DNA of 13,254 nucleotides from a virus (Duplodnaviria; Heunggongvirae; Uroviricota; Caudoviricetes): positions 1 to 13,254 of IMG/VR virus record IMGVR_UViG_2734482778_000014; one strand, given 5' to 3'. The translations under genes and the position numbers were made by a program. How positions within the stretch are numbered: position 1 is the first letter of the stretch; each line of letters starts with the position of its first letter. The notes beneath the pieces were generated by a model. That model saw only the letters and a program-made list of their open reading frames with translations. It searched no databases and was not told the DNA's origin. Positions 1-12,514 of the stretch are shown here, in pieces.

Positions 1-318
1 ATGAAAAAGATAGCTGCTATATCATTAATTAGTATTTTTATTATGTCTGGTTGTGCTGTGCATAATGATGAGACAAGTATCGGTAAATTTGGTCTTGCAT
101 ATAAAAGTAATATTCAGCGTAAACTCGATAACCAATACTACACCGAAGCCGAAGCTTCTTTAGCCAGGGGTAGAATATCTGGTGCAGAAAATATAGTAAA
201 AAATGATGCAACTCATTTCTGTGTTACTCAGGGCAAAAAAATGCAAATAGTTGAGCTGAAGACAGAAGGTGTAGGATTACATGGTGTCGCTCGTCTGACA
301 TTCAAATGTGGAGAGTGA
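1..318 (+). CDS. small predicted outer-membrane lipoprotein (105 aa), function unknown; probable prophage moron
   Basis: ATG at window position 1; N-terminus MKKIAAISLISIFIMSGC has a basic n-region, hydrophobic h-region and lipobox-like MSG|C (Cys18); residue +2 is Ala rather than Asp, so outer-membrane sorting is expected; stop TGA 316-318; visibly AT-richer than the tail genes downstream. Confidence 0.6.
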   Translation: MKKIAAISLISIFIMSGCAVHNDETSIGKFGLAYKSNIQRKLDNQYYTEAEASLARGRISGAENIVKNDATHFCVTQGKKMQIVELKTEGVGLHGVARLTFKCGE

Positions 319-380
319 GAATATTTTTTGGTAAGCGTCAAATATGCGCGTTCTGGCTGTGCGTAGCCGGAACCTGTGGG

Positions 381-413
381 AGCACGATGCCGATAAGTGA
401 AAGGCATCGTGCT
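381..413 (+). other. perfect 11-bp stem-loop (agcacgatgcc / ggcatcgtgct, 11-nt loop) immediately upstream of a strong Shine-Dalgarno AAGGAGG (417-423)
   Basis: Read directly: 381-391 is the exact reverse complement of 403-413. No T-run follows, so it is not a classical intrinsic terminator; it could be a translational or RNA-stability element or a junction remnant. Confidence 0.4.
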
Positions 414-2294
414 ATGAAGGAGGATTCTATCGATGTGGTCAATGGAAGACGGTTACCAGAGATAGGGCTTATGCATAAAAAAATAAGCCCGTGTACCCGC
501 CCTTTGAGTACGACTATAGACCTGAATACGCTTGGAGCCGCCGAACATCTTGGTTTATGGCGTAACAGTAGCTCGGCTATAGCTTCATATGAACGCAATT
601 ATCCAGAGGAAGGCGGCTTTGCTCAGGGGATGCTTGAGATCCTCGAAGGCGGGAATTATGGAAGAACGCAACGTTATACCACTCGCCGTGGAAATATGTA
701 TGTCCGCTGCCTTGCGGCAAGCTGGGATGTATCAAATCCGCAGTGGGAACCGTGGTTAAGAGTCGGTCATCAGTCAGAGAGTCGTTATTACGAAGGTGAT
801 TTAAATGTTCTAACCGACCCCGGTATTTACAGTGTTACAGGAAAGGCAACAAACGGTCCGATGCTGGACACCGTTGGCGCGACACTACTTGGGATACTGG
901 AAGTAATCAGACGTTTTGATGGTGTGTCTGTCTGGCAGCGTTACACAACCACAGGGAAATCAGAAACCACACAGGGACGCACTTTTGAGCGCGTCTACGC
1001 CGGGAGCAAATGGACCGAATGGCGAGAAGTATATAACTCCTTTTCGTTGCCTCTGAATCTGGGCATCGGTGGCGCAGTGGCAAAACTATCCAGTCTGGAC
1101 TGGCAGACCTACGATTTTGTGCCGGGCAGTCTGATAACCGTGCGGCTTGATAACATGACCAACATTCCCGACGGTATGGACTGGGGCGTCATTGATGGCA
1201 ACCTGATAAACATCGCAGTTGGTCCGAGTGATGATTCCGGTACGGGACGCTCAATGCATGTATGGCGAAGCACTGTAAGTAAAGCCAACTACCGCTTTTT
1301 TATGGTGCGCGTTTCAGGAAATCCGGGAAGCCGCACGATTACAACAAGACGAGTACCAATCATTGACGAAGCCCAGACATGGGGCGCGAAACAGACATTC
1401 AGTGCTGGCCTTTCTGGTGAACTGTTCGGCAATGCTGCGACAGCAACAAAGCTGAAAACAGCCCGTAAAATTAATAACGTTTCGTTTGATGGAACATCAG
1501 ATATTAACCTGACGCCTGAAGATATTGGTGCATTGCCAATAACGGGAGGAACTCTTACCGGCGGTTTAACTGCTGCTGGCGAGATTATTTCCAAATCGGC
1601 GAATGGTCTTCGTATTGCCTATGGCAACTATGGATTCTTTATCCGAAACGATGGTTCAAGCACATACCTCATGTTGACCAATTCGGGCGACAGCCTGGGA
1701 ACATGGAATAGTTTAAGGCCGCTTACCATTAATAACGCCAGTGGAGCTGTTTCTATCGGTAATAGTTTAACTGTTAATGGTGATATAGGAACCAATGCTT
1801 GGGTATATGCAAATCGTTTTGCAATTAATAGCAGTACCGGAATGTGGATAAATATGCGTGACCAGAATGTTATTTTTGGACGTAATGCGGTATCCACCGA
1901 TGGTGCTCAGGCATTGTTACGTCAGGACCATGCTGATCGCAAATTTATGATTGGTGGTCTGGGGAATAAGCAATTTGGCATCTACATGATTAATAATTCA
2001 AGGACAGCCAATGGCACCGATGGTCAGGCGTACATGGATAATAACGGGAATTGGCTTTGCGGTGCGCAAGTTATTCCCGGCAATTATGGTAATTTTGACT
2101 CACGCTATGTGAGAGATGTCAGACTTGGCACACGTGTTGTTCAGACCATGCAAAAAGGCGTGATGTATGAAAAATCAGGTCATGTAATCACGGGGCTTGG
2201 TATTGTCGGTGAAGTCGATGGTGATGACCCGGCAGTATTCAGACCTGTTCAAAAATACATTAACGGAACATGGTATAACGTATCGCAGGTGTAA
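414..2294 (+). CDS. H: phage tail fiber protein with P2 gpH-like C-terminus; N-terminal part divergent, start codon ambiguous
   Basis: Long ORF in frame with the track ORF 306..2294. The C-terminal ~70 aa (NYGNFDSRYVRDVRLGTRVVQTMQKGVMYEKSGHVITGLGIVGEVDGDDPAVFRPVQKYINGTWYNVSQV) matches the conserved P2 H / Mu S / P1 S-type fiber C-terminus as I recall it; the motif GNAATATKLKTARKINNVSFDGTSDINLTPEDIGAL is typical of enterobacterial prophage tail fibers; it is followed by a tail fiber assembly gene. Possible starts: ATG 306 (no SD, overlaps lipoprotein gene), ATG 387, ATG 414, or GTG 435 (11 nt after AAGGAGG). Symbol refers to the P2 homologue by C-terminal similarity only. Confidence 0.8.
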   Translation: MKEDSIDVVNGRRLPEIGLMHKKISPCTRPLSTTIDLNTLGAAEHLGLWRNSSSAIASYERNYPEEGGFAQGMLEILEGGNYGRTQRYTTRRGNMYVRCLAASWDVSNPQWEPWLRVGHQSESRYYEGDLNVLTDPGIYSVTGKATNGPMLDTVGATLLGILEVIRRFDGVSVWQRYTTTGKSETTQGRTFERVYAGSKWTEWREVYNSFSLPLNLGIGGAVAKLSSLDWQTYDFVPGSLITVRLDNMTNIPDGMDWGVIDGNLINIAVGPSDDSGTGRSMHVWRSTVSKANYRFFMVRVSGNPGSRTITTRRVPIIDEAQTWGAKQTFSAGLSGELFGNAATATKLKTARKINNVSFDGTSDINLTPEDIGALPITGGTLTGGLTAAGEIISKSANGLRIAYGNYGFFIRNDGSSTYLMLTNSGDSLGTWNSLRPLTINNASGAVSIGNSLTVNGDIGTNAWVYANRFAINSSTGMWINMRDQNVIFGRNAVSTDGAQALLRQDHADRKFMIGGLGNKQFGIYMINNSRTANGTDGQAYMDNNGNWLCGAQVIPGNYGNFDSRYVRDVRLGTRVVQTMQKGVMYEKSGHVITGLGIVGEVDGDDPAVFRPVQKYINGTWYNVSQV

Positions 2295-2901: not shown

Positions 2902-2959
2902 GGTGCAGACATAGCTTAGAGCAGCTTGTGTAAATCTGCAGGGACGAGCTTAAAGAAGC

Positions 2960-2986
2960 GCCGCCTTCATAGAAGGCAGCATTTTA
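2960..2986. terminator. candidate bidirectional intrinsic terminator between convergent genes
   Basis: Stem gccgccttc (2960-2968) / gaaggcagc (2972-2980), 9 bp with one C-A mismatch and a 3-nt loop, followed by ATTTT on the plus strand and by CTTCTTT on the minus strand; 4 nt from the ABC ATPase stop codon (2984-2986). Confidence 0.45.
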
Positions 2987-5344
2987 CATTTGTCTACTAT
3001 CAATACCTGAACGTGCTGCTTCCATGAAGTTGATCCTTCCTGCTGGCATACCAAATTTTTTGTATTTATAACGAAAATAGGCCGACATACGGTCTTCATG
3101 CGTTGATATAATTATCTGACGATCTCGGAATTCAGTTCGTAGTAACTCGACAAAGCCAGCTACATTAATTTCGTCCAGTGTCTGAACAGGATCATCTACG
3201 AGCAATAGAGAGTGCTTGGCGTACCGCTGATTCAAGGCAAGAGTAAATGATAGTACCAATGCTGAAAGCTGGCCCGAACTCATGGAAAAGACGGCATCAT
3301 GCTCATGCCCTGGTGTTTCATTGAAGGCGATAGAATTACCATCATTTTCTATGAAGATACCCAGCCCCTGCTGATAACTTTGCATAAGGCGACCTGAATA
3401 GATATGAAATAGAATCTCAATCTCTTTAACTATAGATTCGAGATACGATCTTTTCTCACTCTCATAAATTCTTTTGATTTTCTGTAGATGACCTTTCAGT
3501 TTATCGGCCTTTCTAATTAATATTTCAGCTTTATTATACTCCAACTCACATTCCGAGATGTATTTAGATAAAGCAATGGATTGTTGCTGCCCTAAATAAG
3601 TTTTTTTCAATTCAAGTCTTGAGGGGGTGATATATTTAACCGAGAGGGGGTCGTTATTAAACACTTCACGAAAAACTCTCTCAAAATCATCATGGATACA
3701 GCTGTCGTCAACTGGTTTAAATATTTCACGAACGCGACGCTCGAGTTCATCTATCGCGAGTTGTGTTACAGGTTCAAAATTATCGCACAGTAAGTCCTGA
3801 AATATAACCCCCCCAGCTAGTAGTTGTTTATAATAATTTTCTAACCACAGGATTTGTTCTTCTGATAAACTTGTTAGTTGGCGCTTACGCTCAATACTTT
3901 CTTTCTCTTGCACCAGATATGTCTGCAGTACAATTTCAATGGGCTCCTGCCAGTTGCGTCTGAAATTGGCTAGTGCTTGTGAGAATTGATCATTCTGTTG
4001 CTCGGCTAAATTTTCTAGAATTATACGTTGGTTTTCAATTCCTCCAAGCAGAGCATCAGCCGTTGGCCAAGGATGTCCACACGTAGGGCAAATATTTGTC
4101 AAATCGCAGTGAGATTCATGCTTCCTGAAAGCACTTACCATTTGCTCGCGTGTTTGTAGCAGCGCCGCATAGCATTCCTGAACTTTATCTGAATTAGCTA
4201 ACTGCAATTTGAGCCCGGCTACCTGTTGATGAAACTCCTCCGGCGATAGGGTTTCCGGGAGGAGAGTGACCAGTGGAGCAGTGATCACCAAACGATCTTC
4301 ATTGATAGCCTTTATTGTATCTTTAAATGCGTCACTTAGTGCTAAGGCTGATTCAAAACAAGCAACGTCATCCTGCCATTTGTTCCTTTGTTCAATAGAT
4401 TGATAATACATCAAAAACCGCTGTTGTAGCTCCTGTTTAGGGAGGAGTTTCTTTATCAATTCATTATTATATAGCTGATTTTCATATTGTTCGAAATTTT
4501 CAGTAAAACGTCGGACTCGGAATAACTCTCCATCTGCAGATAACCACTGTTCGAATTGCTGTGCATCAACCTCCACAACATCACGATCCCATGGTTGATC
4601 TGTAATTGCGATAATCCTTTCATATGCAACAGAACTATCTGCTGGTAGCATCTGCTGCTTAGCTAGGTCCCATTTATCTTTAAGTTGTTTCATTTCGGCA
4701 TATTTCTGTGGATTACACAATTTACCGATTTTGGTTGATGCCAAGTTAATATTACTAATTTTGTCCTGAATGTCTCCAATATCGAACAGATGTGCAATCT
4801 GGCTCTGTCTATCTTTTTCCTTTTGTTTTAGCAACCGAGTGTTTTCTTCTTGCTCAACATAATGAAACAATTCAAAATCACGTTGATACTGATCTCCTAG
4901 TAAGGCAGAAAGGTATGATTCTTCTTGCGAAATAGCTTCACCTCGCTCCGCGTTGAAATCGGCTAATTCATAAAGAGGAAGCCTTAAATCAGCTACGCCT
5001 TTATGTTCATCTAGAACTGCTTTGCTGGCTGCTCTCTCGAGAAAACAACTACTCCCATCAACTAAGATCTCGGCACGGATTGAAAGCCAATCATCATTTC
5101 TCGCTTGTTTGAATAACCAAGGACAGCCAGTTTTCAAGCTTCGTCGATCTATTGTAAGTTTTTCGAGTTCAATATAGCGCCGGATTTTTCCTGTCAGTAG
5201 CAGTTCTAGTGCATCAAAAAAAGATGATTTACCGAAACCATTGGGACCATCAAGAACAATGAGATATTCACTTTCAAGAGTTAACTCTAGTTTCTCAAAG
5301 ACTTTAAAATTACGTACTTCTAGGCGTTTAACAATCAATTTCAT
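2984..5344 (-). CDS. SMC/Rad50-like ABC ATPase with long coiled-coil insert (LmuB / DdmC-like, ABC-three-component family)
   Basis: Preferred start ATG 5344-5342 (MKLIVKRLEVRNFKVF..., preceded by GAGG); the track ORF begins at an upstream GTG at 5368. Walker A GPNGFGKS at nt 5225-5248; about 650 residues rich in Q/E/K/L heptad-like sequence; CPTC (CxxC) at nt 4079-4090 near the protein midpoint; C-terminal signature-like SSGQ (3269-3280), Walker B LLLVDD (3191-3208) and H-loop STHED (His codon 3098-3100). Stop TAA 2984-2986. Confidence 0.85.
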   Translation of the reverse strand: MKLIVKRLEVRNFKVFEKLELTLESEYLIVLDGPNGFGKSSFFDALELLLTGKIRRYIELEKLTIDRRSLKTGCPWLFKQARNDDWLSIRAEILVDGSSCFLERAASKAVLDEHKGVADLRLPLYELADFNAERGEAISQEESYLSALLGDQYQRDFELFHYVEQEENTRLLKQKEKDRQSQIAHLFDIGDIQDKISNINLASTKIGKLCNPQKYAEMKQLKDKWDLAKQQMLPADSSVAYERIIAITDQPWDRDVVEVDAQQFEQWLSADGELFRVRRFTENFEQYENQLYNNELIKKLLPKQELQQRFLMYYQSIEQRNKWQDDVACFESALALSDAFKDTIKAINEDRLVITAPLVTLLPETLSPEEFHQQVAGLKLQLANSDKVQECYAALLQTREQMVSAFRKHESHCDLTNICPTCGHPWPTADALLGGIENQRIILENLAEQQNDQFSQALANFRRNWQEPIEIVLQTYLVQEKESIERKRQLTSLSEEQILWLENYYKQLLAGGVIFQDLLCDNFEPVTQLAIDELERRVREIFKPVDDSCIHDDFERVFREVFNNDPLSVKYITPSRLELKKTYLGQQQSIALSKYISECELEYNKAEILIRKADKLKGHLQKIKRIYESEKRSYLESIVKEIEILFHIYSGRLMQSYQQGLGIFIENDGNSIAFNETPGHEHDAVFSMSSGQLSALVLSFTLALNQRYAKHSLLLVDDPVQTLDEINVAGFVELLRTEFRDRQIIISTHEDRMSAYFRYKYKKFGMPAGRINFMEAARSGIDSRQM

Positions 5345-6032
5345 AACCTGCCTCAGATAATTTATCACCCATGGAAATTAATAGATCTTCCGGTAATACA
5401 TCCTGTGATACAATCTGAGCAGCTAAAGAATCAATAACTGAGTCGAATGTAGTTAATAGAGCAGGGTTATCCGTGCGCTGAATTTTTTCATTAATACTTC
5501 GTTCAAGGCTAGCTAAATCAGAATTACCAAAGCTATTAACTGCTATAAAAGGCAGTTTTATCACAAGTCTGTATAGTAGGCTTTGCCATCCACCTTGTAG
5601 GTAATGAGATTTATATTCGGTAAAGGTATCAGGAGAAGTAATCAATTCGCGAAAGACTGCTGCGAGTCCTTGGGTATCAACCTGCTGGTATAAAGCTTCA
5701 AGCTCTGCGGTAGTATATGGAAGTACGTGTTTCTTGAAGAAATAACTATCTTCTTCCGCATGATGAACTCTTTTACTACAAAGCACACTTGAGCTGTCAG
5801 TGTTCCATACAATCAATAAATTAATGTTTTTCTCAAGTGCGGGATCGGATGTGGCTTTTTTACATTCATTCAACCACCCAGCTTGGATTTCAGGTGTAAT
5901 TATCGGCTCACCAAAGACTACTAACCAGAAATTTTTCTTACCCAGTGTACTGTATTCGTATAACGCCAAGTCTGTGGAATGTTTACGCGTCAGTCCTTCT
6001 GATTCCAACAATTGCTCAATTAGGTTCTGCAT
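5328..6032 (-). CDS. hypothetical protein, 234 aa; candidate middle component of an ABC-three-component / Lamassu-like system (LmuC / DdmB position)
   Basis: ATG 6032-6030; stop TAA 5328-5330; no motif I can recognise. Sandwiched between the putative effector and the ABC ATPase with 17-nt overlaps on both sides, indicating a co-translated operon. Family assignment is by position only. Confidence 0.5.
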   Translation of the reverse strand: MQNLIEQLLESEGLTRKHSTDLALYEYSTLGKKNFWLVVFGEPIITPEIQAGWLNECKKATSDPALEKNINLLIVWNTDSSSVLCSKRVHHAEEDSYFFKKHVLPYTTAELEALYQQVDTQGLAAVFRELITSPDTFTEYKSHYLQGGWQSLLYRLVIKLPFIAVNSFGNSDLASLERSINEKIQRTDNPALLTTFDSVIDSLAAQIVSQDVLPEDLLISMGDKLSEAGYEIDC

Positions 6033-7332
6033 CTTTCAAACTCTCAGGTACATTGTTTAAAGAAACCATAGCCACCTTCTTATAATTCCCGATGCGGTTT
6101 TCCCTTAGTAATTCGTGTTCAATGGTATCCACTCCCTCAGTGGCGTCGATACCTACGAGTACGTCAGAGATTGAAGGTCTGTCTATGGCGCTGGTGATAA
6201 GTACACCGCCCTCAAATAAACATTCTACATCTTCGCTAATTGCCTGTTGCATGATGTCATGACAGATACTTTCCTGATGCTCTACAGCATGGTGGATACC
6301 TGTTGGATAATAGAAAAGCCCATCATTTAGCCAAGAGAATGCAACACCAGAAACTTCATTTCGTGCAGCCTGAACTAGTTTCCAGAAAATTGTAAACATC
6401 CCAAGTCGCATTGCATCACGATCAAGTGATTGTTCCTTAAATTCATCAAGAGTTCTAAAACGTCCCTTTTTATGCGGCATCGTTGCTCTCAGGAATGACT
6501 TCATTCCATCAACATCCAACGCAGTGATAGCAGCCAGATAGTCATCTAACTTTTGACATGCTGCTTGGGAGAAGCCGTCTTGGCGATCACAAAACTCTTG
6601 GTAGTATGTGCCAATATCAATCTGCAGGCGGCTAAGGAAGAACGCTTCATTCTCAAACGGAGTATAATCGTTTGCTTCGATTACACCATACAACTCAGAA
6701 AACTCGATGAATTCGCCAGCTGCGATTGCCGTCTGATGACGCACAGACTCGTGTATCCGACTATGGGTCATAATGACTTTTGAATTTACTATGGCTTCAA
6801 GCGTGTTCTGAATATTTGCAACGAGATGAATCTTCCAGGCGGGTAGTACTGCGATATTAGAAAGTAGGCTGGTAAGTTTATTCCTAATCAATCTGTCCAC
6901 CTCACTCAGTGGGCAAAAGGATTGTGTGGCATTTCCTTCTACATCAGGTGGAATAGGGTAAGCATAAAATCTCACTGGTCCATAGTCAGCCTCAAATGTT
7001 GCCGGAACGTTCATTACTTCGCGAGCCACATGGAAATAAGCGAGCTGCACACCTCGCTCCCTCGCACTATCCCGTTGGGTAGTGATGCCATCTCTGTAGG
7101 CGGAAAAGCGCGTGTCTTTGTACGCTTTGACCTGATGCATTGACAGGCATTGCTGGTGACGAAAAATTGCGAAATCATCCTGGCTTTCTAGCTGCAGTTT
7201 CAAATCTCGGTTCGCTTCATAATCTGAGGACATCATCTTCAAACAGTGGTACAGCGCCAGCTTGCCCTGATAGACAAATCCACTCCACGTAGAGATGGCT
7301 GTGTGTGGAAAAACTTGAGGAACAACTGCCAT
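6016..7332 (-). CDS. putative nuclease effector with N-terminal PD-(D/E)xK-like motifs (Cap4/DUF4297-like; LmuA / DdmA position)
   Basis: Preferred start ATG 7332-7330 (MAVVPQVF..., upstream AAGGGA); the track ORF begins at GTG 7347. N-terminal region contains GFVYQ (nt 7267-7281), then LQLESQDDFAIF and MHQVK: Asp codons at 7174-7179 and Q-x-K at 7126-7134, a spacing and context consistent with a restriction-endonuclease-like D...(E/Q)xK core. The C-terminal ~300 aa has no recognisable motif. Stop TGA 6016-6018. Confidence 0.5.
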   Translation of the reverse strand: MAVVPQVFPHTAISTWSGFVYQGKLALYHCLKMMSSDYEANRDLKLQLESQDDFAIFRHQQCLSMHQVKAYKDTRFSAYRDGITTQRDSARERGVQLAYFHVAREVMNVPATFEADYGPVRFYAYPIPPDVEGNATQSFCPLSEVDRLIRNKLTSLLSNIAVLPAWKIHLVANIQNTLEAIVNSKVIMTHSRIHESVRHQTAIAAGEFIEFSELYGVIEANDYTPFENEAFFLSRLQIDIGTYYQEFCDRQDGFSQAACQKLDDYLAAITALDVDGMKSFLRATMPHKKGRFRTLDEFKEQSLDRDAMRLGMFTIFWKLVQAARNEVSGVAFSWLNDGLFYYPTGIHHAVEHQESICHDIMQQAISEDVECLFEGGVLITSAIDRPSISDVLVGIDATEGVDTIEHELLRENRIGNYKKVAMVSLNNVPESLKDAEPN

Positions 7333-7415
7333 GAGATCCCTTATCACTTTAGATTCACATCATTGGGACATTCTCAGCACGGAGACTCTTCCCATCCTCT
7401 AACGATATATAGCCT

Positions 7416-7444
7416 ATTGACATATAAAATACTCTTAGTATTTT
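7416..7444 (+). promoter_or_regulatory. candidate sigma70 promoter: TTGACA (7416-7421), 17-bp spacer, TATTTT (7439-7444)
   Basis: Perfect -35 hexamer and acceptable -10 with correct spacing in the AT-rich region between the cassette and FI; predicted transcription start near 7451, reading toward the terminator at 7781-7809. Confidence 0.35.
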
Positions 7445-7780
7445 CGTGGATATTGTTCTATCCCCTAGATTTACATGCTTGTTGCTTATCATATCCTTAC
7501 ACTGAATCTTCGTTGGTTTGGTCAGCATCTCTAACCAGTCCCTCACGGAGAATTACTGCAACAATACAATTGTCATAAAACCTTCCGCTTAGAAGGGAAA
7601 ATGTCAACTCAACAAAGTGGTTGGCCCACTATTGATTAATAAACAATACTAGTAATGCTTCCATCGGCTGTAAGAAAAATTGAGGACTTCCGCTCCTCGC
7701 TCAAAGCAGGCTATCAGACTTGATAGCGTTTTGGCTATGTAAATTGTCAGTTGGAAAATGAGTGAGTACAAATCAGGACA

Positions 7781-7809
7781 GGCGGGCGAATTGCCCGCCT
7801 TTTCTTTAT
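7781..7809 (+). terminator. rho-independent terminator (GGCGGGC gaatt GCCCGCC then TTTTCTTTAT)
   Basis: Perfect 7-bp GC stem with 5-nt loop followed by a T-rich tract on the plus strand; no annotated plus-strand ORF of meaningful size ends upstream of it. Confidence 0.7.
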
Positions 7810-7903: not shown

Positions 7904-8565
7904 ATGAGTGACTATCATCATGGCGTGCAGGTGCTGGAGATTAACGACGGCACCCGCGTCATTTCCACCGTATCCACCGCCATTGTTGGCATGGTCTGCA
8001 CGGCCAGCGATGCGGATGCGGAAACCTTCCCCCTCAATAAACCGGTGCTGATTACCAATGTGCAGAGCGCAATTGCAAAGGCCGGTAAAAAAGGCACGCT
8101 GGCGGCGTCGTTGCAGGCCATCGCTGACCAGTCAAAACCAGTCACCGTTGTCGTGCGTGTTGAAGACGGCACCGGCGACGACGAGGAAACGAAACTCGCG
8201 CAGACCGTTTCCAATATCATCGGCACCACTGACGAAAACGGTCAGTACACCGGACTGAAAGCCCTGATGACACGATGGCTGAGGCGCACATGTGGGCTAT
8301 TGATAAGCCCATCACCGCAACGCTGATTCGCGACATCGTTGACGGCATCAATGCCAAATTCCGTGAACTGAAAAGCAACGGTTATATCGTGGATGGCACA
8401 TGCTGGTTCAGTGAAGAAGCCAATGATGCGGAAACCCTCAAGGCCGGAAAACTGTATATCGACTACGACTATACCCCGGTGCCTCCTCTCGAAAACCTGA
8501 CCCTGCGCCAGCGTATTACTTCAAGATACCTGGCAAGTCTGGTCACCTCGGTTAACAGCAATTAA
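7904..8565 (+). pseudogene. FI: tail sheath protein gene FI, disrupted: frame break and apparent internal deletion of about 0.5 kb
   Basis: ATG 7904 with GGAG SD. The N-terminal ~121 codons ([54 protein letters not shown]...TGLKAL) match the P2 sheath N-terminus as recalled. At about 8265-8270 the frame changes, and the sheath C-terminus ([35 protein letters not shown]...LVTSVNSN) continues in another frame to stop 8563-8565. Total coding capacity is about 220 codons, against the roughly 390-400 aa expected for a P2-type sheath. Confidence 0.8.
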
Positions 8566-8577
8566 GGAGCCTGACCG

Positions 8578-9096
8578 ATGGCAATGCCGCGCAAACTCAA
8601 GTTAATGAACGTCTTTCTGAACGGCTACAGCTATCAGGGCGTCGCGAAGTCCGTCACGCTGCCAAAACTGACCCGTAAGCTCGAAAACTATCGCGGTGCG
8701 GGGATGAACGGCAGCGCACCGGTAGACCTCGGCCTTGATGACGATGCGCTGTCAATGGAGTGGTCGCTCGGGGGCTTCCCGGATTCGGTTATCTGGGAAC
8801 TTTACGCCGCAACCGGTGTGGATGCCGTGCCGATTCGTTTTGCAGGCTCTTACCAGCGTGACGATACCGGCGAAACGGTGGCCGTCGAAGTGGTCATGCG
8901 TGGCCGTCAGAAAGAAATCGACACCGGCGAGGGTAAACAGGGAGAAGACACCGAGTCGAAAATCTCCGTGGTCTGCACCTATTTCCGGCTGACGATGGAC
9001 GGTAAGGAGCTGGTCGAAATTGACACCATCAACATGATTGAGAAGGTGAACGGCGTCGACCGGCTGGAGCAACACCGCCGCAATATCGGCCTGTGA
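8578..9096 (+). CDS. FII: tail tube protein (P2 gpFII), 172 aa
   Basis: ATG 8578 preceded by AAGGAG (8564-8569); 172 aa, the same length as P2 FII; sequence MAMPRKLKLMNVFLNGYSYQGVAKSVTLPKL... recalled as P2-type tube; conserved position after the sheath gene. Confidence 0.92.
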   Translation: MAMPRKLKLMNVFLNGYSYQGVAKSVTLPKLTRKLENYRGAGMNGSAPVDLGLDDDALSMEWSLGGFPDSVIWELYAATGVDAVPIRFAGSYQRDDTGETVAVEVVMRGRQKEIDTGEGKQGEDTESKISVVCTYFRLTMDGKELVEIDTINMIEKVNGVDRLEQHRRNIGL

Positions 9097-9103
9097 TTTT
9101 CAT

Positions 9104-9124
9104 CCGGTCAGCCTGGCTGACCGG
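9104..9124 (+). other. stem-loop between tube gene and gene E (ccggtcagc ctg gctgaccgg)
   Basis: Read directly: 9104-9112 is the reverse complement of 9116-9124 (9-bp stem, 3-nt loop), 8 nt after the FII stop. No strong T-run follows, so it is a possible attenuator, processing or stability element rather than a full terminator. Confidence 0.35.
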
Positions 9125-9152
9125 TTAACCCTGATTCAGAAGTGAGAAAACC

Positions 9153-9428
9153 ATGAACAAAGAAAATGTGATTACCCTGGACAATCCGGTCAAGCGTGGT
9201 GAGCAGGTTATCGAACAGGTCACGCTGATGAAACCCAATGCCGGGACGCTGCGCGGTGTCAGTCTGGCAGCGGTCGCGAACTCCGAAGTCGATGCACTGA
9301 TTAAGGTGCTGCCGCGCATGACGGCACCGATGCTGACCGAGCAGGAGGTCGCCGCGCTGGAACTGCCTGACCTTGTGGCGCTGGCCGGTAAGGTGGTCGG
9401 TTTTTTGTCGCCGAACTCGGTGCAGTAA
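9153..9428 (+). CDS. E: tail assembly chaperone (P2 gpE), 91 aa
   Basis: ATG 9153; 91 aa, the same length as P2 E; conserved position between tube and tape measure genes; contains the slippery heptamer near its 3' end. Confidence 0.88.
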   Translation: MNKENVITLDNPVKRGEQVIEQVTLMKPNAGTLRGVSLAAVANSEVDALIKVLPRMTAPMLTEQEVAALELPDLVALAGKVVGFLSPNSVQ

Positions 9429-9580
9429 CGTTTCCGAAAAATCTCTCGGTCGATGACCTGATGGCGGATGTGGCAGTGATATTTCACTGGCCGCCATCAG
9501 AACTGTATCCCATGAGCCTGACCGAACTCATCACATGGCGCGAAAAGGCGCTCCGGCGAAGCGGAAACACGAATGAGTAA
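9153..9580 (+). CDS. E': tail assembly chaperone E+E' fusion made by programmed -1 ribosomal frameshift
   Basis: Slippery heptamer T TTT TTG at 9401-9407 in the correct phase of the E frame (ggT TTT TTG); after a -1 shift the frame stays open to TAA 9578-9580, overlapping the T start codon at 9573. Combined product is about 142 aa. E/E' frameshifting is established for P2 and analogous to lambda G/GT. Confidence 0.75.
9401..9407 (+). promoter_or_regulatory. -1 frameshift slippery site TTTTTTG for E/E'
   Basis: Heptamer fits the X XXY YYZ pattern in the E reading frame; the -1 frame downstream is open for about 58 codons. Confidence 0.75.
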
Positions 9581-12020
9581 CAATGTAAAATTACAGGTAT
9601 TGCTCAGGGCTGTTGACCAGGCATCCCGCCCGTTTAAATCCATCCGCACAGCGAGTAAGTCGCTGTCGGGGGATATCCGGGAAACACAACAATCACTGCG
9701 CGAGCTGAACGGTCACGCATCCCGTATTGAGGGATTTCGCAAGACCAGCGCACAGCTCGCCGTGACTGGTCAGGAACTGAAAAAAGCCAGACAGGAAGCC
9801 GCAGCTCTGGCTGTCCAGTTTAAAAATACTGAACGACCGACAAATGCACAGGCAAAGGCAATGGAAGCCGCGCGTAAAAATGCGTCTGAGTTACAGGCGA
9901 AATATAACAGCCTGAGATTGTCGGTACAGCGCCAGCGTCAGGAATTGAGTCAGGCGGGTATTAATACCCGTAATCTGGCGCATGATGAACGAGGGCTGAA
10001 AAACCGTATCAGTGAAACCACCGCACAGCTTAACCGGCAGCGTGACGCGCTGGTGCGTGTCAGTGCGCAACAGGCAAAACTTAATGCAGTAAAACAGCGT
10101 TATCAGGCCGGAAAGGAACTGGCCGGAAACATGGCCTCAGTGGGCGCTGCTGGTGTGGGGATTGCGGCGGCGGGAACGATGGCCGGAGTTAAGCTGCTGA
10201 TGCCCGGCTATGAGTTTGCGCAGAAAAACTCAGAATTGCAGGCCGTGCTGGGTGTGGCAAAAGACTCCGCCGAAATGGCCGCGCTACGCAAGCAGGCGCG
10301 CCAGCTCGGCGACAATACCGCAGCCTCGGCGGATGATGCAGCCGGTGCGCAGATTATCATTGCGAAAGCCGGTGGGGATGTTGATGCCATTCAGGCGGCA
10401 ACGCCGATCACGCTGAATATGGCGCTGGCGAACCGTCGCACGATGGAAGAAAACGCCGCTCTGCTGATGGGGATGAAATCCGCCTTTCAGCTTTCAAACG
10501 ATAAGGTCGCTCATATCGGGGATGTTCTCTCCATGACGATGAACAAAACCGCCGCCGATTTTGACGGCATGAGCGATGCGCTGACCTATGCCGCACCTGT
10601 GGCAAAAAATGCCGGTGTCAGCATTGAAGAAACCGCCGCAATGGTCGGGGCACTGCATGATGCAAAAATCACAGGCTCAATGGCGGGGACGGGAAGTCGT
10701 GCCGTGTTAAGCCGCCTGCAGGCACCGACGGGAAAAGCATGGGATGCACTCAAAGAACTTGGTGTGAAAACCTCAGACAGTAAGGGAAACACCCGGCCAA
10801 TATTTACCATTCTGAAAGAAATGCAGGCCAGTTTTGAGAAAAACCGGCTCGGTACTGCCCAGCAGGCTGAATACATGAAAACCATTTTCGGGGAGGAAGC
10901 CAGCTCAGCCGCCGCCGTGCTGATGATTGCCGCCTCAACCGGAAAGCTGGACAAACTGACTGCTGCGTTTAAAGCCTCAGACGGGAAGACCGCAGAGCTG
11001 GTAAATATCATGCAGGACAATCTCGGCGGTGACTTTAAGGAGTTTCAGTCCGCTTATGAAGCGGTGGGGACAGACCTGTTTGACCAGCAGGAAGGCGCAC
11101 TGCGTAATCTCACGCAGACGGCCACAAAGTATGTGTTAAAACTAGACGGCTGGATCAAGAAAAACAAATCACTGGCGTCAACCATCGGCCTCATTGTCGG
11201 TGGCGCACTGGCGCTTATTGGCATCATCGGTGCCATTGGTCTTGTAGCCTGGCCGGTTATCACCGGCATCAATGCCATTATCGCGGCAGTGGGCGCAATA
11301 GGGGCAATCTTCACGACGGTTGGCAGTGCCGTTATGACGGCCATCGGGGCGATTAGCTGGCCGGTTGTGGCCGTGGTGGCCGCCATTGTCGCCGGGGCGT
11401 TGCTTATCCGTAAATACTGGGAGCCTGTCAGCGCATTCTTTGGCGGTGTGGTTGAAGGGCTGAAAGCAGCATTTGCGCCGGTGGGGGAACTGTTCACGCC
11501 ACTTAAGTCGCTGTTTGACTGGCTGGGCGAAAAGTTACAGGCCGCTTGGCAGTGGTTTAAAAACCTGATTGCCCCGGTTAAAGCCACCCAGGACACCCTG
11601 AACCGTTGCCGTGACACGGGCGTCATGTTCGGGCAGGCACTGGCTGACGCGTTGATGTTGCCGCTTAATGCGTTCAACAAACTGCGCAGTGGTATTGACT
11701 GGGTACTGGAAAAACTCGGTGTTATCAACAAAGAGTCAGACACACTTGACCAGACCGCCGCCAGAACTCATGCCGCCACGTATGGCACCGGTGGTTATAT
11801 TCCGGCGACCAGCTCTTATGCAGGCTATCAGGCTTATCAGCCGGTCACGGCACCGGCTGGCCGCTCTTATGTAGACCAGAGTAAAAACGAATATCACATC
11901 AGCCTGACGGGTGGTACTGCGCCGGGGACACAGCTTGACCGCCAGTTACAGGATGCGCTCGAAAAATACGAGCGGGATAAACGTGTGCGCGCCCGTGCCA
12001 GCATGATGCATGACGGTTAA
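9573..12020 (+). CDS. T: tail tape measure protein (P2 gpT), 815 aa
   Basis: ATG 9573; 815 aa, the same length as P2 T; coiled-coil-rich N-terminal half and a long Gly/Ala/Ile-rich hydrophobic segment (around nt 11150-11420) typical of tape measure proteins; conserved position after E/E'. Confidence 0.93.
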   Translation: MSNNVKLQVLLRAVDQASRPFKSIRTASKSLSGDIRETQQSLRELNGHASRIEGFRKTSAQLAVTGQELKKARQEAAALAVQFKNTERPTNAQAKAMEAARKNASELQAKYNSLRLSVQRQRQELSQAGINTRNLAHDERGLKNRISETTAQLNRQRDALVRVSAQQAKLNAVKQRYQAGKELAGNMASVGAAGVGIAAAGTMAGVKLLMPGYEFAQKNSELQAVLGVAKDSAEMAALRKQARQLGDNTAASADDAAGAQIIIAKAGGDVDAIQAATPITLNMALANRRTMEENAALLMGMKSAFQLSNDKVAHIGDVLSMTMNKTAADFDGMSDALTYAAPVAKNAGVSIEETAAMVGALHDAKITGSMAGTGSRAVLSRLQAPTGKAWDALKELGVKTSDSKGNTRPIFTILKEMQASFEKNRLGTAQQAEYMKTIFGEEASSAAAVLMIAASTGKLDKLTAAFKASDGKTAELVNIMQDNLGGDFKEFQSAYEAVGTDLFDQQEGALRNLTQTATKYVLKLDGWIKKNKSLASTIGLIVGGALALIGIIGAIGLVAWPVITGINAIIAAVGAIGAIFTTVGSAVMTAIGAISWPVVAVVAAIVAGALLIRKYWEPVSAFFGGVVEGLKAAFAPVGELFTPLKSLFDWLGEKLQAAWQWFKNLIAPVKATQDTLNRCRDTGVMFGQALADALMLPLNAFNKLRSGIDWVLEKLGVINKESDTLDQTAARTHAATYGTGGYIPATSSYAGYQAYQPVTAPAGRSYVDQSKNEYHISLTGGTAPGTQLDRQLQDALEKYERDKRVRARASMMHDG

Positions 12021-12034
12021 GGAGGTGACGAAAA

Positions 12035-12514
12035 ATGATGCTCGCGTTAGGTATGTTTGTTTTTATGCGCCAGACGCTGCCACACCAGACCATGCAGCGT
12101 GAATCTGATTATCGCTGGCCGTCAAATTCCCGTATCGGTAAACGGGATGCCTACCAGTTTCTCGGTGTTGGCGAGGAAAACATGACGCTTGCCGGTGTGC
12201 TTTATCCTGAACTGACCGGCGGAAAGCTGACGATGACCACGCTCAGGCTGATGGCAGATGAAGGCCGGGCGTGGCCGTTGCTGGATGGCACCGGCATGAT
12301 TTACGGCATGTATGTCATCAGCAAGGTGAGTGAAACAGGGAGTATTTTCTTTGCAGACGGCACACCCCGGAAAATTGATTTTACGCTGTCGCTCACCCGC
12401 GTTGATGAATCACTGGCCGCGCTTTATGGCGATATCAGTAAACAGGCGGAGTCGCTCATCGGTAAGGCCGGCAGTATGGCGACCAGATTCACAGGTATGA
12501 CGGGGGCGGGATAA
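12035..12514 (+). CDS. U: tail protein gpU, 159 aa
   Basis: ATG 12035 preceded by AAGGAGGTGA; 159 aa, the same length as P2 U; stop TAA 12512-12514 overlaps the D start by 1 nt. Confidence 0.9.
   Translation: MMLALGMFVFMRQTLPHQTMQRESDYRWPSNSRIGKRDAYQFLGVGEENMTLAGVLYPELTGGKLTMTTLRLMADEGRAWPLLDGTGMIYGMYVISKVSETGSIFFADGTPRKIDFTLSLTRVDESLAALYGDISKQAESLIGKAGSMATRFTGMTGAG

What the first reader, a model, noticed from the sequence alone, without database searches (positions are those of the whole stretch)
2984..5344. SMC-like ABC ATPase carries a mid-protein CxxC in the position of a Rad50-type zinc hook
The ATPase has a canonical N-terminal Walker A (GPNGFGKS, nt 5225-5248) and C-terminal signature, Walker B and H-loop (SSGQ 3269-3280; LLLVDD 3191-3208; His 3098-3100). 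These are separated by about 650 residues of coiled-coil-like sequence. Almost exactly midway lies CPTC (nt 4079-4090), followed by GHPWP. A CxxC at the coiled-coil apex is the hallmark of the Rad50/SbcC zinc hook that mediates dimerisation or tethering, which would imply a DNA-bridging sensor rather than a transporter-type ABC protein.
Basis: partly seen in the sequence, partly recalled or inferred. Interest (0 to 1): 0.6.

Follow-up and report, generated by a model that had tools for sequence, protein, structure and literature searches.

The report
Lamassu defence ATPase with zinc hook
The gene encodes LmuB, the Rad50-like sensor ATPase of a "long" Lamassu anti-phage system carried in a decaying P2-like prophage of E. 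coli.

Summary
ORF 2984-5344 (-) encodes a 786-aa ABC ATPase, and every motif sits at the stated coordinates. CPTC (aa 419-422) is its only CxxC.

The gene is the last of a three-gene operon:
- lmuA: Cap4-like nuclease plus CTD1.
- lmuC: MComp1.
- lmuB: this ATPase.

This is a Lamassu / ABC-3C defence system. Three features match the published "long", Rad50/Mre11-like Lamassu sub-family: a length near 800 aa, a hhhhDD Walker B and a single CxxC. In a short Lamassu, the LmuB zinc hook was reported as required for phage defence.

"DNA-bridging" is not supported. Published work on short Lamassu points to hook-mediated dimerisation and DNA-end sensing by the heads. Zinc binding has not been shown directly for any LmuB.

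Novelty: already known. Interest is low. The one open point is how the long sub-family, which has no solved structure, activates its nuclease.

The parts
2984..5344 (-). lmuB: 786-aa Rad50/SbcC-like ABC ATPase of a long Lamassu system. An alternative GTG start lies at 5368.
5225..5248 (-). Walker A, GPNGFGKS (aa 33-40)
   Evidence: G33, P34, N35, G36, G38 and K39 are invariant in 48 homologues.
4850..4852 (-). Q-loop glutamine Q165, in YVEQEEN
   Evidence: Invariant.
4076..4090 (-). Zinc-hook motif CPTCG (C419, C422, G423) at the coiled-coil apex
   Evidence: Cysteines invariant in 65/65 homologues. Sits in the turn between helices 368-412 and 429-491 of the AF2 model. Matches the published LmuB hook 'CPxCG' (PMC10586767).
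3386..4777 (-). Coiled-coil arms with the hook: aa 190-412, hook turn 413-428, aa 429-653
   Evidence: DSSP of AF2 model mbd6feffd68c9, mean pLDDT 85.7. Arm lengths are conserved in homologues.
3269..3280 (-). ABC signature motif SSGQ (aa 689-692)
3191..3208 (-). Walker B, LLLVDD (hhhhDD; Asp replaces the usual catalytic Glu)
   Evidence: DDP is present in 65/65 homologues. hhhhDD is the published long-Lamassu consensus (PMC12663957).
3098..3100 (-). H-loop histidine H749, in STHE
   Evidence: Invariant.
5328..6032 (-). lmuC: 234-aa middle component (MComp1 / MC1 type). Overlaps lmuB by 17 nt and lmuA by 17 nt.
   Evidence: Pfam MComp1 E=3e-10. The same gene lies next to distant LmuB homologues.
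6016..7332 (-). lmuA: effector, 438 aa from the ATG at 7332 or 443 aa from the GTG at 7347. N-terminal Cap4-like PD-(D/E)xK nuclease plus ABC-3C CTD1.
   Evidence: Pfam CTD1 E=2.5e-26. Cap4_nuclease E=1.5e-5, 25.7 bits, just under the 26.2 cut-off. PADLOC LmuA E=8.9e-18. D58 and H71-Q72-V73-K74 are invariant in 5 homologues down to 19% identity (nt 7174-7176 and 7126-7134).
2959..2981 (-). Terminator-like hairpin directly after the lmuB stop codon
   Evidence: 10-bp stem with 6 GC pairs, followed by a T-rich tail.
2913..7774 (.). AT-rich cargo segment inserted between the P2-type tail-fibre assembly gene G and the tail sheath gene FI
   Evidence: Homology to Peduovirus genomes stops at 2912 and resumes at 7775. 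GC is about 0.38-0.45 over 3001-7500, against 0.52-0.59 in the tail genes from 8001. Other prophages hold other cargo here.

Best explanation
**What it is.** The ORF is LmuB of a three-gene 'long' (Rad50/Mre11-like) Lamassu / ABC-3C anti-phage system, with gene order lmuA-lmuC-lmuB on the minus strand. The operon sits in the G/FI cargo slot of a degraded P2-like prophage at the E. coli yegR-ogrK locus.

**Proposed mechanism, with the basis of each step.**
1. Two LmuB chains fold back on themselves into antiparallel coiled coils. They pair at the apex, each giving C419 and C422 to one shared tetrahedral zinc site. Shown here: exactly two invariant Cys per chain, in the turn between the two arms. 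Zinc and dimerisation are inferred from Rad50 and from short-LmuB cryo-EM structures.
2. The ABC heads bind ATP and sense abnormal DNA produced during phage or plasmid replication, such as free dsDNA ends or hairpin/palindrome intermediates. This is inferred from published work on short Lamassu.
3. LmuC (MC1 type, reported from structure prediction to resemble the Mre11/SbcD C-terminal region) and the CTD1 domain of LmuA hold the Cap4-like nuclease inactive on LmuB. This is inferred.
4. DNA sensing frees or re-arranges LmuA. LmuA then oligomerises, cuts DNA indiscriminately and aborts the infection. This is inferred from short Lamassu. I give roughly 55% to this 'release' mode in the long sub-family, and about 30% to a nuclease that stays bound at the heads.

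The Walker B Asp-for-Glu change (hhhhDD) suggests slow, regulatory ATP turnover.
For: **Family assignment**
- PADLOC LmuB E=1.1e-61 and LmuA E=8.9e-18.
- Pfam CTD1 E=2.5e-26, MComp1 E=3e-10, SMC_N E=1.2e-18.
- RefSeq annotates the 80%-identical copy as 'ABC-three component system protein / middle component 1'.
- The CTD1-LmuA / MComp1 / LmuB order recurs next to LmuB homologues of 40%, 28% and 28% identity in Marinobacter, Aeribacillus and a metagenome.

**Hook**
- C419 and C422 are invariant in 65/65 homologues.
- 64/65 homologues have a single CxxC, with conserved arm lengths.
- The motif lies in the turn between long helices of the AF2 model.
- No conserved third or fourth metal ligand is present nearby.

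**Fold**
- Foldseek: Rad50 7zr1 E=1.7e-14, Salmonella LmuB 9hqu E=1.6e-11.

**Long sub-family**
- 786 aa, hhhhDD Walker B, one CxxC, CTD1 plus MC1. These match PMC12663957 and bioRxiv 10.1101/2025.03.14.643221.

**Published mechanism in the family**
- The zinc hook, nuclease and ATP motifs were reported as required for defence. LmuA is sequestered and then forms a tetramer.
- dsDNA-end sensing.
- Palindrome triggers.

**Defence context**
- Prophage cargo slot, AT-rich.
- The same module also lies in an ssrA island beside an integrase and an Eco57I-type restriction-modification methylase-domain gene.
Against: - No experiment exists on this locus or, according to PMC12663957, on any long Cap4-type Lamassu. 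Only one long system, a hydrolase-protease type from Bacillus cereus, had been shown to defend.
- Zinc has not been resolved in any LmuB structure.
- Some functional short LmuB proteins lack a hook altogether (V. cholerae DdmC), so a hook is not essential to the Lamassu principle.
- Published AF3 models place long LmuA and LmuC at the heads, not at the hook. The sequestration geometry of short Lamassu may therefore not transfer.
- My structural evidence is a monomer prediction with pLDDT 74-80 around the hook. I could not read its coordinates.
- The Cap4 Pfam hit is just below its gathering threshold.
Confidence: 0.85

Rival explanations
1. Same long Lamassu system, but it works in cis like Mre11-Rad50/SbcCD. 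The LmuA nuclease stays bound at the LmuB heads through the Mre11-like LmuC and cuts DNA next to the sensed end or hairpin. It is not released to oligomerise and degrade DNA globally. The hook would then serve only to close the LmuB ring.
For: - Published AF3 models put long LmuA and LmuC around the heads, as SbcD sits on SbcC.
Against: - LmuA keeps a Cap4-type nuclease plus an ABC-3C CTD, as in systems where release and tetramerisation were shown.
- Cap4-type nucleases are activated by oligomerisation in CBASS, as discussed.
- No structure or biochemistry exists for either mode in the long sub-family.
Confidence: 0.3
2. The hook does more than dimerise. It could tether two complexes or two DNA molecules over a distance. 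Alternatively it could act as a zinc-responsive switch, as proposed for the hook-bearing anticodon nuclease RloC.
For: - Rad50 hooks are classically discussed as tethers (established knowledge; see also PMC10586767).
- RloC is among the LmuB relatives and is described as zinc-responsive (reference 27).
- Besides the cysteines, the hook has extra near-invariant residues (P420, G423, W426, L432).
Against: - In the three solved short or type I Lamassu complexes the two hooks of one dimer are simply juxtaposed. No inter-complex contact is reported.
- Nothing in the sequence tests bridging.
Confidence: 0.1
3. The CxxC is a structural turn, or a chance motif, that does not bind metal. The protein dimerises only through its heads or coiled coils.
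For: - A shuffled sequence of this composition carries a CxxC 13% of the time.
- Zinc is unresolved in LmuB maps.
- Hook-less LmuBs function.
Against: - Both Cys are invariant in 65/65 homologues down to 22% identity, while all other Cys vary.
- The CPxCG knuckle is the classical metal-binding form; a profile of the region picks out rubredoxin and C2H2 zinc knuckles.
- The zinc hook was reported as required for defence in the Salmonella system.
Confidence: 0.04
4. It is a housekeeping SbcC/Rad50 DNA-repair paralogue rather than a defence protein.
For: Best PDB matches by sequence profile and by fold are Rad50 and SbcC. Some sources name relatives 'SbcCD ATPase subunit' or 'recombination protein F'.
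Against: - There is no Mre11/SbcD phosphoesterase gene nearby. The partners are a Cap4-like nuclease with CTD1 and MComp1.
- Walker B is DD, not DE.
- About 250 aa shorter than SbcC-named relatives of about 1040-1050 aa.
- Located in mobile-element cargo slots with patchy strain distribution: only three 80%-identical copies among 5,426 complete E. coli genomes.
Confidence: 0.02

Closest known systems
Long (Rad50/Mre11-like) Lamassu: LmuA(CTD1-5) + LmuC(MC1) + large LmuB (Haudiquet et al. PNAS 2025, PMC12663957; Li et al. bioRxiv 10.1101/2025.03.14.643221; originally ABC-3C of Krishnan et al. 2020)
   Same: LmuB of about 800 aa, Walker B hhhhDD, exactly one CxxC hook, CTD1-type LmuA with a Cap4 effector, MComp1/MC1 LmuC, A-C-B gene order with overlapping genes, and location in a mobile defence slot.
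   Different: No difference in kind was found. This copy sits in a degraded P2-like prophage at yegR-ogrK. It is absent from the 5,426 complete RefSeq E. coli genomes, apart from three 80%-identical copies.
Short type II Lamassu with solved structures: Salmonella enterica LmuACB (PDB 9hqu/9hqx) and V. cholerae DdmABC (9uxh/9uxl)
   Same: Same three-component logic. Cap4-type LmuA. A Rad50-like LmuB dimer with folded coiled coils. The Salmonella LmuB has a zinc hook reported as required for defence.
   Different: - LmuB is about 630-650 aa there, against 786 aa here.
- Walker B is hhhhD[Q/S/T/E], not DD.
- Different LmuA CTD and LmuC families (V. cholerae DdmA/DdmB are CTD7/MC3); not detectable by sequence search.
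- V. cholerae LmuB has no hook.
Rad50 / SbcC of the Mre11-Rad50 (SbcCD) DNA-repair complex
   Same: Split ABC head, antiparallel coiled coil, CPxCG hook at the apex, and the best fold and profile matches.
   Different: No Mre11/SbcD phosphoesterase partner. Shorter arms. Walker B is DD instead of DE. The partner is a Cap4-like PD-(D/E)xK nuclease carried on a separate ABC-3C CTD.
Other hook- or coiled-coil-bearing defence ABC ATPases (RloC, DndD, Wadjet JetC, Gabija GajA, PtuA)
   Same: ABC/SMC-type head. Some (RloC, DndD) are reported as LmuB relatives.
   Different: Only weak N-terminal P-loop matches here. Partner genes and domain layout differ.

Membership tests
Lamassu / ABC-3C defence system | LmuB: SMC/Rad50-like ABC ATPase whose head is split by a long coiled-coil insertion | tested here: met
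   PADLOC LmuB E=1.1e-61. Pfam SMC_N and AAA_23. AF2 secondary structure. Rad50 and LmuB fold hits.
Lamassu / ABC-3C defence system | LmuA: N-terminal effector domain fused to an ABC-3C C-terminal domain | tested here: met
   CTD1 E=2.5e-26. Cap4_nuclease E=1.5e-5, 0.5 bit under the cut-off. PADLOC LmuA E=8.9e-18. Invariant D58 and QxK74.
Lamassu / ABC-3C defence system | LmuC middle component encoded between lmuA and lmuB | tested here: met
   MComp1 E=3e-10. 17-nt overlaps on both sides. Same order in L001 and L007-L009.
Lamassu / ABC-3C defence system | Protects against phage or plasmids, typically by abortive infection | not testable with these tools
   Context only: prophage cargo slot and defence-island neighbours.
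Long (Rad50/Mre11-like) Lamassu sub-family | LmuB of about 800 aa (short LmuB is about 600 aa) | tested here: met
   786 aa here; homologues are 771-820 aa. Solved short LmuBs are 562-653 aa.
Long (Rad50/Mre11-like) Lamassu sub-family | Walker B consensus hhhhDD | tested here: met
   LLLVDD here; DDP in 65/65 homologues.
Long (Rad50/Mre11-like) Lamassu sub-family | Exactly one CxxC zinc-hook motif | tested here: met
   One CxxC here. 64/65 homologues have exactly one.
Long (Rad50/Mre11-like) Lamassu sub-family | Partners of CTD1-5 (LmuA) and MC1 (LmuC) type | tested here: met
   Pfam CTD1 and MComp1. Criterion taken.
Long (Rad50/Mre11-like) Lamassu sub-family | LmuC structurally resembles the C-terminal, Rad50-binding region of Mre11/SbcD | tested here: inconclusive
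   The single-sequence AF2 model of LmuC was unusable (mean pLDDT 46.6), so no fold search was run.
Rad50 / SbcC proper | CxxC hook at the coiled-coil apex that co-ordinates zinc between two chains | tested here: inconclusive
   Motif, invariance and apex position are met. Zinc binding and dimerisation cannot be tested with these tools. A profile of the hook region matched only generic CPxCG knuckles among the 60 hits listed (of 131), with no solved Rad50 hook among them.
Rad50 / SbcC proper | Adjacent Mre11/SbcD metallophosphoesterase nuclease | tested here: not met
   The neighbours are Cap4-like/CTD1 and MComp1. No Mre11/SbcD-type (Metallophos) domain was found among the 10 window proteins scanned.
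Rad50 / SbcC proper | Canonical Walker B hhhhDE | tested here: not met
   hhhhDD is invariant.
Transporter-type ABC ATPase | Contiguous nucleotide-binding domain that works with membrane permease subunits | tested here: not met
   [not shown]

The most novel reading that the evidence does not exclude
The long, Rad50/Mre11-like Lamassu represented here may not follow the release-and-tetramerise model solved for short Lamassu. It might instead keep its Cap4-like nuclease docked at the LmuB heads through the Mre11-like LmuC and cut in cis at sensed DNA ends or hairpins, with the zinc hook closing a Rad50-style ring. That would make it a mechanistic intermediate between a repair machine and an abortive-infection system. 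This natural E. coli locus would be a convenient model for the test.
Probability: 0.3. Interest if true: 0.5.

Novelty: already known. Interest (0 to 1): 0.15.

Why it matters
The finding adds no new biology. The zinc hook of LmuB, the long sub-family with a single CxxC and a DD Walker B, and its descent from SbcCD/Rad50 are all published.

Its practical value is annotation. Public records name this protein 'AAA family ATPase', 'purine NTPase' or 'recombination protein F'. It should be read as LmuB of a long Lamassu-Cap4 system.

A secondary point is that the long sub-family has no experimental structure and, by the literature read here, no tested Cap4-type member. A native E. coli copy that stays intact while its prophage decays is a reasonable candidate for that work.

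Tried and rejected
1. Sequence searches of the PDB with LmuB alone and with a 48-sequence profile found Rad50, SMC and PtuA heads but no solved LmuB. Only fold searches recovered LmuB.
2. LmuA against PDB sequences gave only a spurious repeat hit.
3. A profile of the hook region (aa 380-460) against the PDB returned C2H2 zinc fingers and rubredoxins, that is the generic CPxCG knuckle. No Rad50 hook structure was among the 60 hits listed, out of 131. This supports a metal knuckle but not specific hook homology. The C2H2 reading was rejected because no conserved histidines follow the motif.
4. A crude 3.5-residue hydrophobic periodicity scan was only weakly higher in parts of the arms. It is not informative.
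5. NCBIfam has no specific model for any of the three proteins.
6. The single-sequence AF2 model of LmuC was too poor to use, with mean pLDDT 46.6.
7. Supplementary tables of PMC12663957 are not held, so I could not check whether an E. coli copy is in their catalogue.
8. A dimer or hook-fragment model was not attempted. 'Apex' therefore rests on secondary structure, arm symmetry and fold matches, not on measured distances.
9. The promoter scan found no more sigma-70-like sites than shuffles (8 found, 11.8 expected). No promoter is proposed.
Full report
**Observation.**
The ORF on the minus strand from 5344 to 2984 encodes a 786-aa protein. The ATG at 5344 has a GAGG about 7 nt upstream, and an in-frame GTG lies at 5368.
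- Walker A, GPNGFGKS (aa 33-40)
- CPTC (aa 419-422), followed by GHPWP
- signature motif SSGQ (aa 689-692)
- Walker B, LLLVDD (aa 713-718)
- H-loop H749

CPTC is the only CxxC among 11 cysteines. On this sequence alone that is weak evidence. Shuffles of the protein contain a CxxC 13% of the time, and one within aa 405-435 0.5% of the time.

**Conservation.**
A homologue search returned 88 proteins. They include an identical E. coli protein and full-length relatives of 771-820 aa from Enterobacterales, Vibrio, Marinobacter, Pseudomonas, Aeribacillus and metagenomes.
- In 65 full-length homologues (22-90% identity), C419 and C422 are invariant. The other nine cysteines are freely replaced.
- In a 48-sequence alignment the hook consensus is CP[T/A/L]CG[H/Y]xW.
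- Within the whole central region (aa 200-650) the only invariant positions are D253, C419 and C422.
- 64 of 65 homologues have exactly one CxxC.
- Its distance from the Q-loop (248-259 aa) and from the signature motif (265-281 aa) is tightly kept.
- No third or fourth conserved metal ligand lies nearby. A tetrahedral site would therefore need two chains, which is the logic of a Rad50 hook.

**Structure.**
An AlphaFold2 model built on the 48-sequence alignment has mean pLDDT 85.7.
- It shows N- and C-terminal head lobes at about aa 1-189 and 654-786.
- The arms are about aa 190-412 and 429-653, that is 223 and 225 residues. They have interruptions at about 231-260, 349-367 and 511-573.
- CPTC lies in a 16-residue turn (413-428) between helices 368-412 and 429-491.
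- Foldseek against the PDB ranks the Chaetomium Rad50 composite structure first (7zr1, E=1.7e-14). Salmonella enterica Lamassu LmuB is third (9hqu_A, E=1.6e-11).
- I could not read the model coordinates. 'Apex' therefore rests on secondary structure, arm symmetry and these fold matches.

**Surroundings.**
The two genes upstream on the same strand each overlap their neighbour by 17 nt.
- One is a 234-aa protein with Pfam MComp1 (ABC-3C middle component 1, E=3e-10).
- The other is a 438/443-aa protein with CTD1 of ABC-3C systems (E=2.5e-26) and an N-terminal Cap4-nuclease match just under threshold (E=1.5e-5).
- PADLOC calls the ATPase LmuB (E=1.1e-61) and the 443-aa protein LmuA (E=8.9e-18).
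- Five LmuA homologues down to 19% identity keep D58 and H71-Q72-V73-K74, a PD-(D/E)xK-type site.
- The same CTD1 / MComp1 / LmuB order recurs beside LmuB homologues of 40%, 28% and 28% identity. Some have restriction-modification and other defence-type neighbours.
- A terminator-like hairpin follows the lmuB stop codon.

This is a Lamassu (ABC-3C) operon in the order lmuA-lmuC-lmuB.

**Genomic context.**
- The window is a P2-like (Peduovirus) prophage remnant next to yegR.
- Phage homology stops at 2912, after tail-fibre assembly gene G, and resumes at 7775, before sheath gene FI.
- The 4.9-kb segment between them is AT-rich: GC about 0.38-0.45, against 0.52-0.59 in the tail genes.
- Related prophages carry different cargo at this position, such as Shedu or a DUF5677 protein. 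It is a cargo slot of the kind described for P2-like phages (PMC13586616).

**Comparison with the literature.**
- Haudiquet et al. (PNAS 2025, PMC12663957) divide Lamassu into short and long types.
  - Short LmuB is about 600 aa, with Walker B hhhhD[Q/S/T/E] and zero, one or two CxxC.
  - Long LmuB is about 800 aa, with Walker B hhhhDD and always one CxxC.
  - Cap4 is among the long-type effectors.
  - They derive Lamassu from SbcCD, with the long type as the intermediate.
- Li et al. (bioRxiv 10.1101/2025.03.14.643221) report that phage protection by a Salmonella LmuACB required the LmuB zinc hook, and that the two hook motifs are juxtaposed in the cryo-EM dimer.
  - They note that MC1-type LmuC goes with larger LmuB and CTD1-5 LmuA, in a Rad50/Mre11-like sub-family.
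- A type I Bacillus LmuB also shows juxtaposed CQYC hooks.

The protein here meets every sequence-level criterion of the long sub-family: 786 aa, LLLVDD, one CxxC, CTD1 and MComp1.

**Mechanism.**
- Shown here:
  - a split, apparently intact ABC head, with invariant Walker A, Q-loop, signature, D-loop and H-loop motifs;
  - Asp in place of the Walker B Glu;
  - two invariant cysteines in the turn between the two arms;
  - a translationally coupled nuclease and adaptor.
- Inferred from the family:
  - zinc-mediated LmuB dimerisation;
  - sensing of dsDNA ends or palindrome-derived structures by the heads;
  - restraint of LmuA by LmuB and LmuC;
  - activation of the Cap4-like nuclease by oligomerisation after release, giving abortive infection.
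- Open:
  - Published AF3 models place long LmuA and LmuC at the heads, as SbcD sits on SbcC.
  - The Salmonella authors limit their release model to the short sub-family.
  - A cis-acting, Mre11-Rad50-like mode therefore remains possible for this system.
- 'DNA-bridging' has no support in any Lamassu study I read.
- Zinc itself has not been resolved in any LmuB map.

**Verdict.**
The feature is a textbook member of an already described family, so novelty is 'already known' and interest is low.

Noticed in passing
window 7904-8565 (breakpoint at 8269): The tail sheath gene FI carries an internal deletion of about 529 bp relative to phage vB_EcoM-720R8 (L002 4762-5289) and to E. coli assemblies L004/L006. 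It is split into two out-of-frame ORFs, 7904..8326 and 8275..8565. This prophage cannot make a normal contractile tail.
   Followed up: yes
window 1-500: The host gene yegR (1..318) abuts the prophage. Phage homology begins only at 494, inside tail-fibre gene H. ORF 306..2294 therefore has a non-phage N-terminus, and everything upstream of H is missing. The prophage is a remnant at the yegR-ogrK locus.
   Followed up: partly
window 10401-12393; loci L003, L004, L006: Other E. coli assemblies that encode the identical LmuB share 99.9-100% identical flanks but show different decay. All three lack 1,993 bp of tape-measure gene T, which is intact here, and all three keep the sheath segment deleted here. 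L003 has also lost genes H and G. The lmuACB operon is intact in every variant, which suggests the defence cargo is retained while the phage genes decay. This agrees with PMC13586616 on defective P2 elements.
   Followed up: partly
L001 (E. coli PapM-32-1, NZ_CP049204.1) 8001-12364: An 80%-identical copy of the whole lmuACB module sits in an island at ssrA, next to an integrase and an Eco57I-type restriction-modification methylase-domain gene. It is not in a P2-like prophage. Only 3 of 5,426 complete E. coli genomes hold a copy, and all three are of the 80% type.
   Followed up: partly
window 3001-7500: The cargo is markedly AT-rich (GC about 0.38-0.45). A 2026 preprint reports H-NS silencing of the AT-rich retron Eco1 cargo in the P2-like remnant of E. 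coli BL21 (10.64898/2026.09.05.749240). This operon might likewise be silenced under laboratory conditions.
   Followed up: no
window 7780-7800 (+): A strong GC-rich hairpin (AGGCGGGCGAATTGCCCGCCT) followed by a T-run lies 5 bp inside the point where phage homology resumes, upstream of the sheath gene. It could be a terminator that insulates the late tail operon from the cargo slot.
   Followed up: no
lmuB aa 380-460 (window 3965-4207): A profile of the hook region scores against C2H2 zinc fingers (E down to 6e-11) and rubredoxins, through the shared CPxCG-x-[FW] knuckle followed by a helix. This is a reminder that hook motifs can produce false zinc-finger hits in profile searches.
   Followed up: yes
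[not shown]
   Followed up: partly
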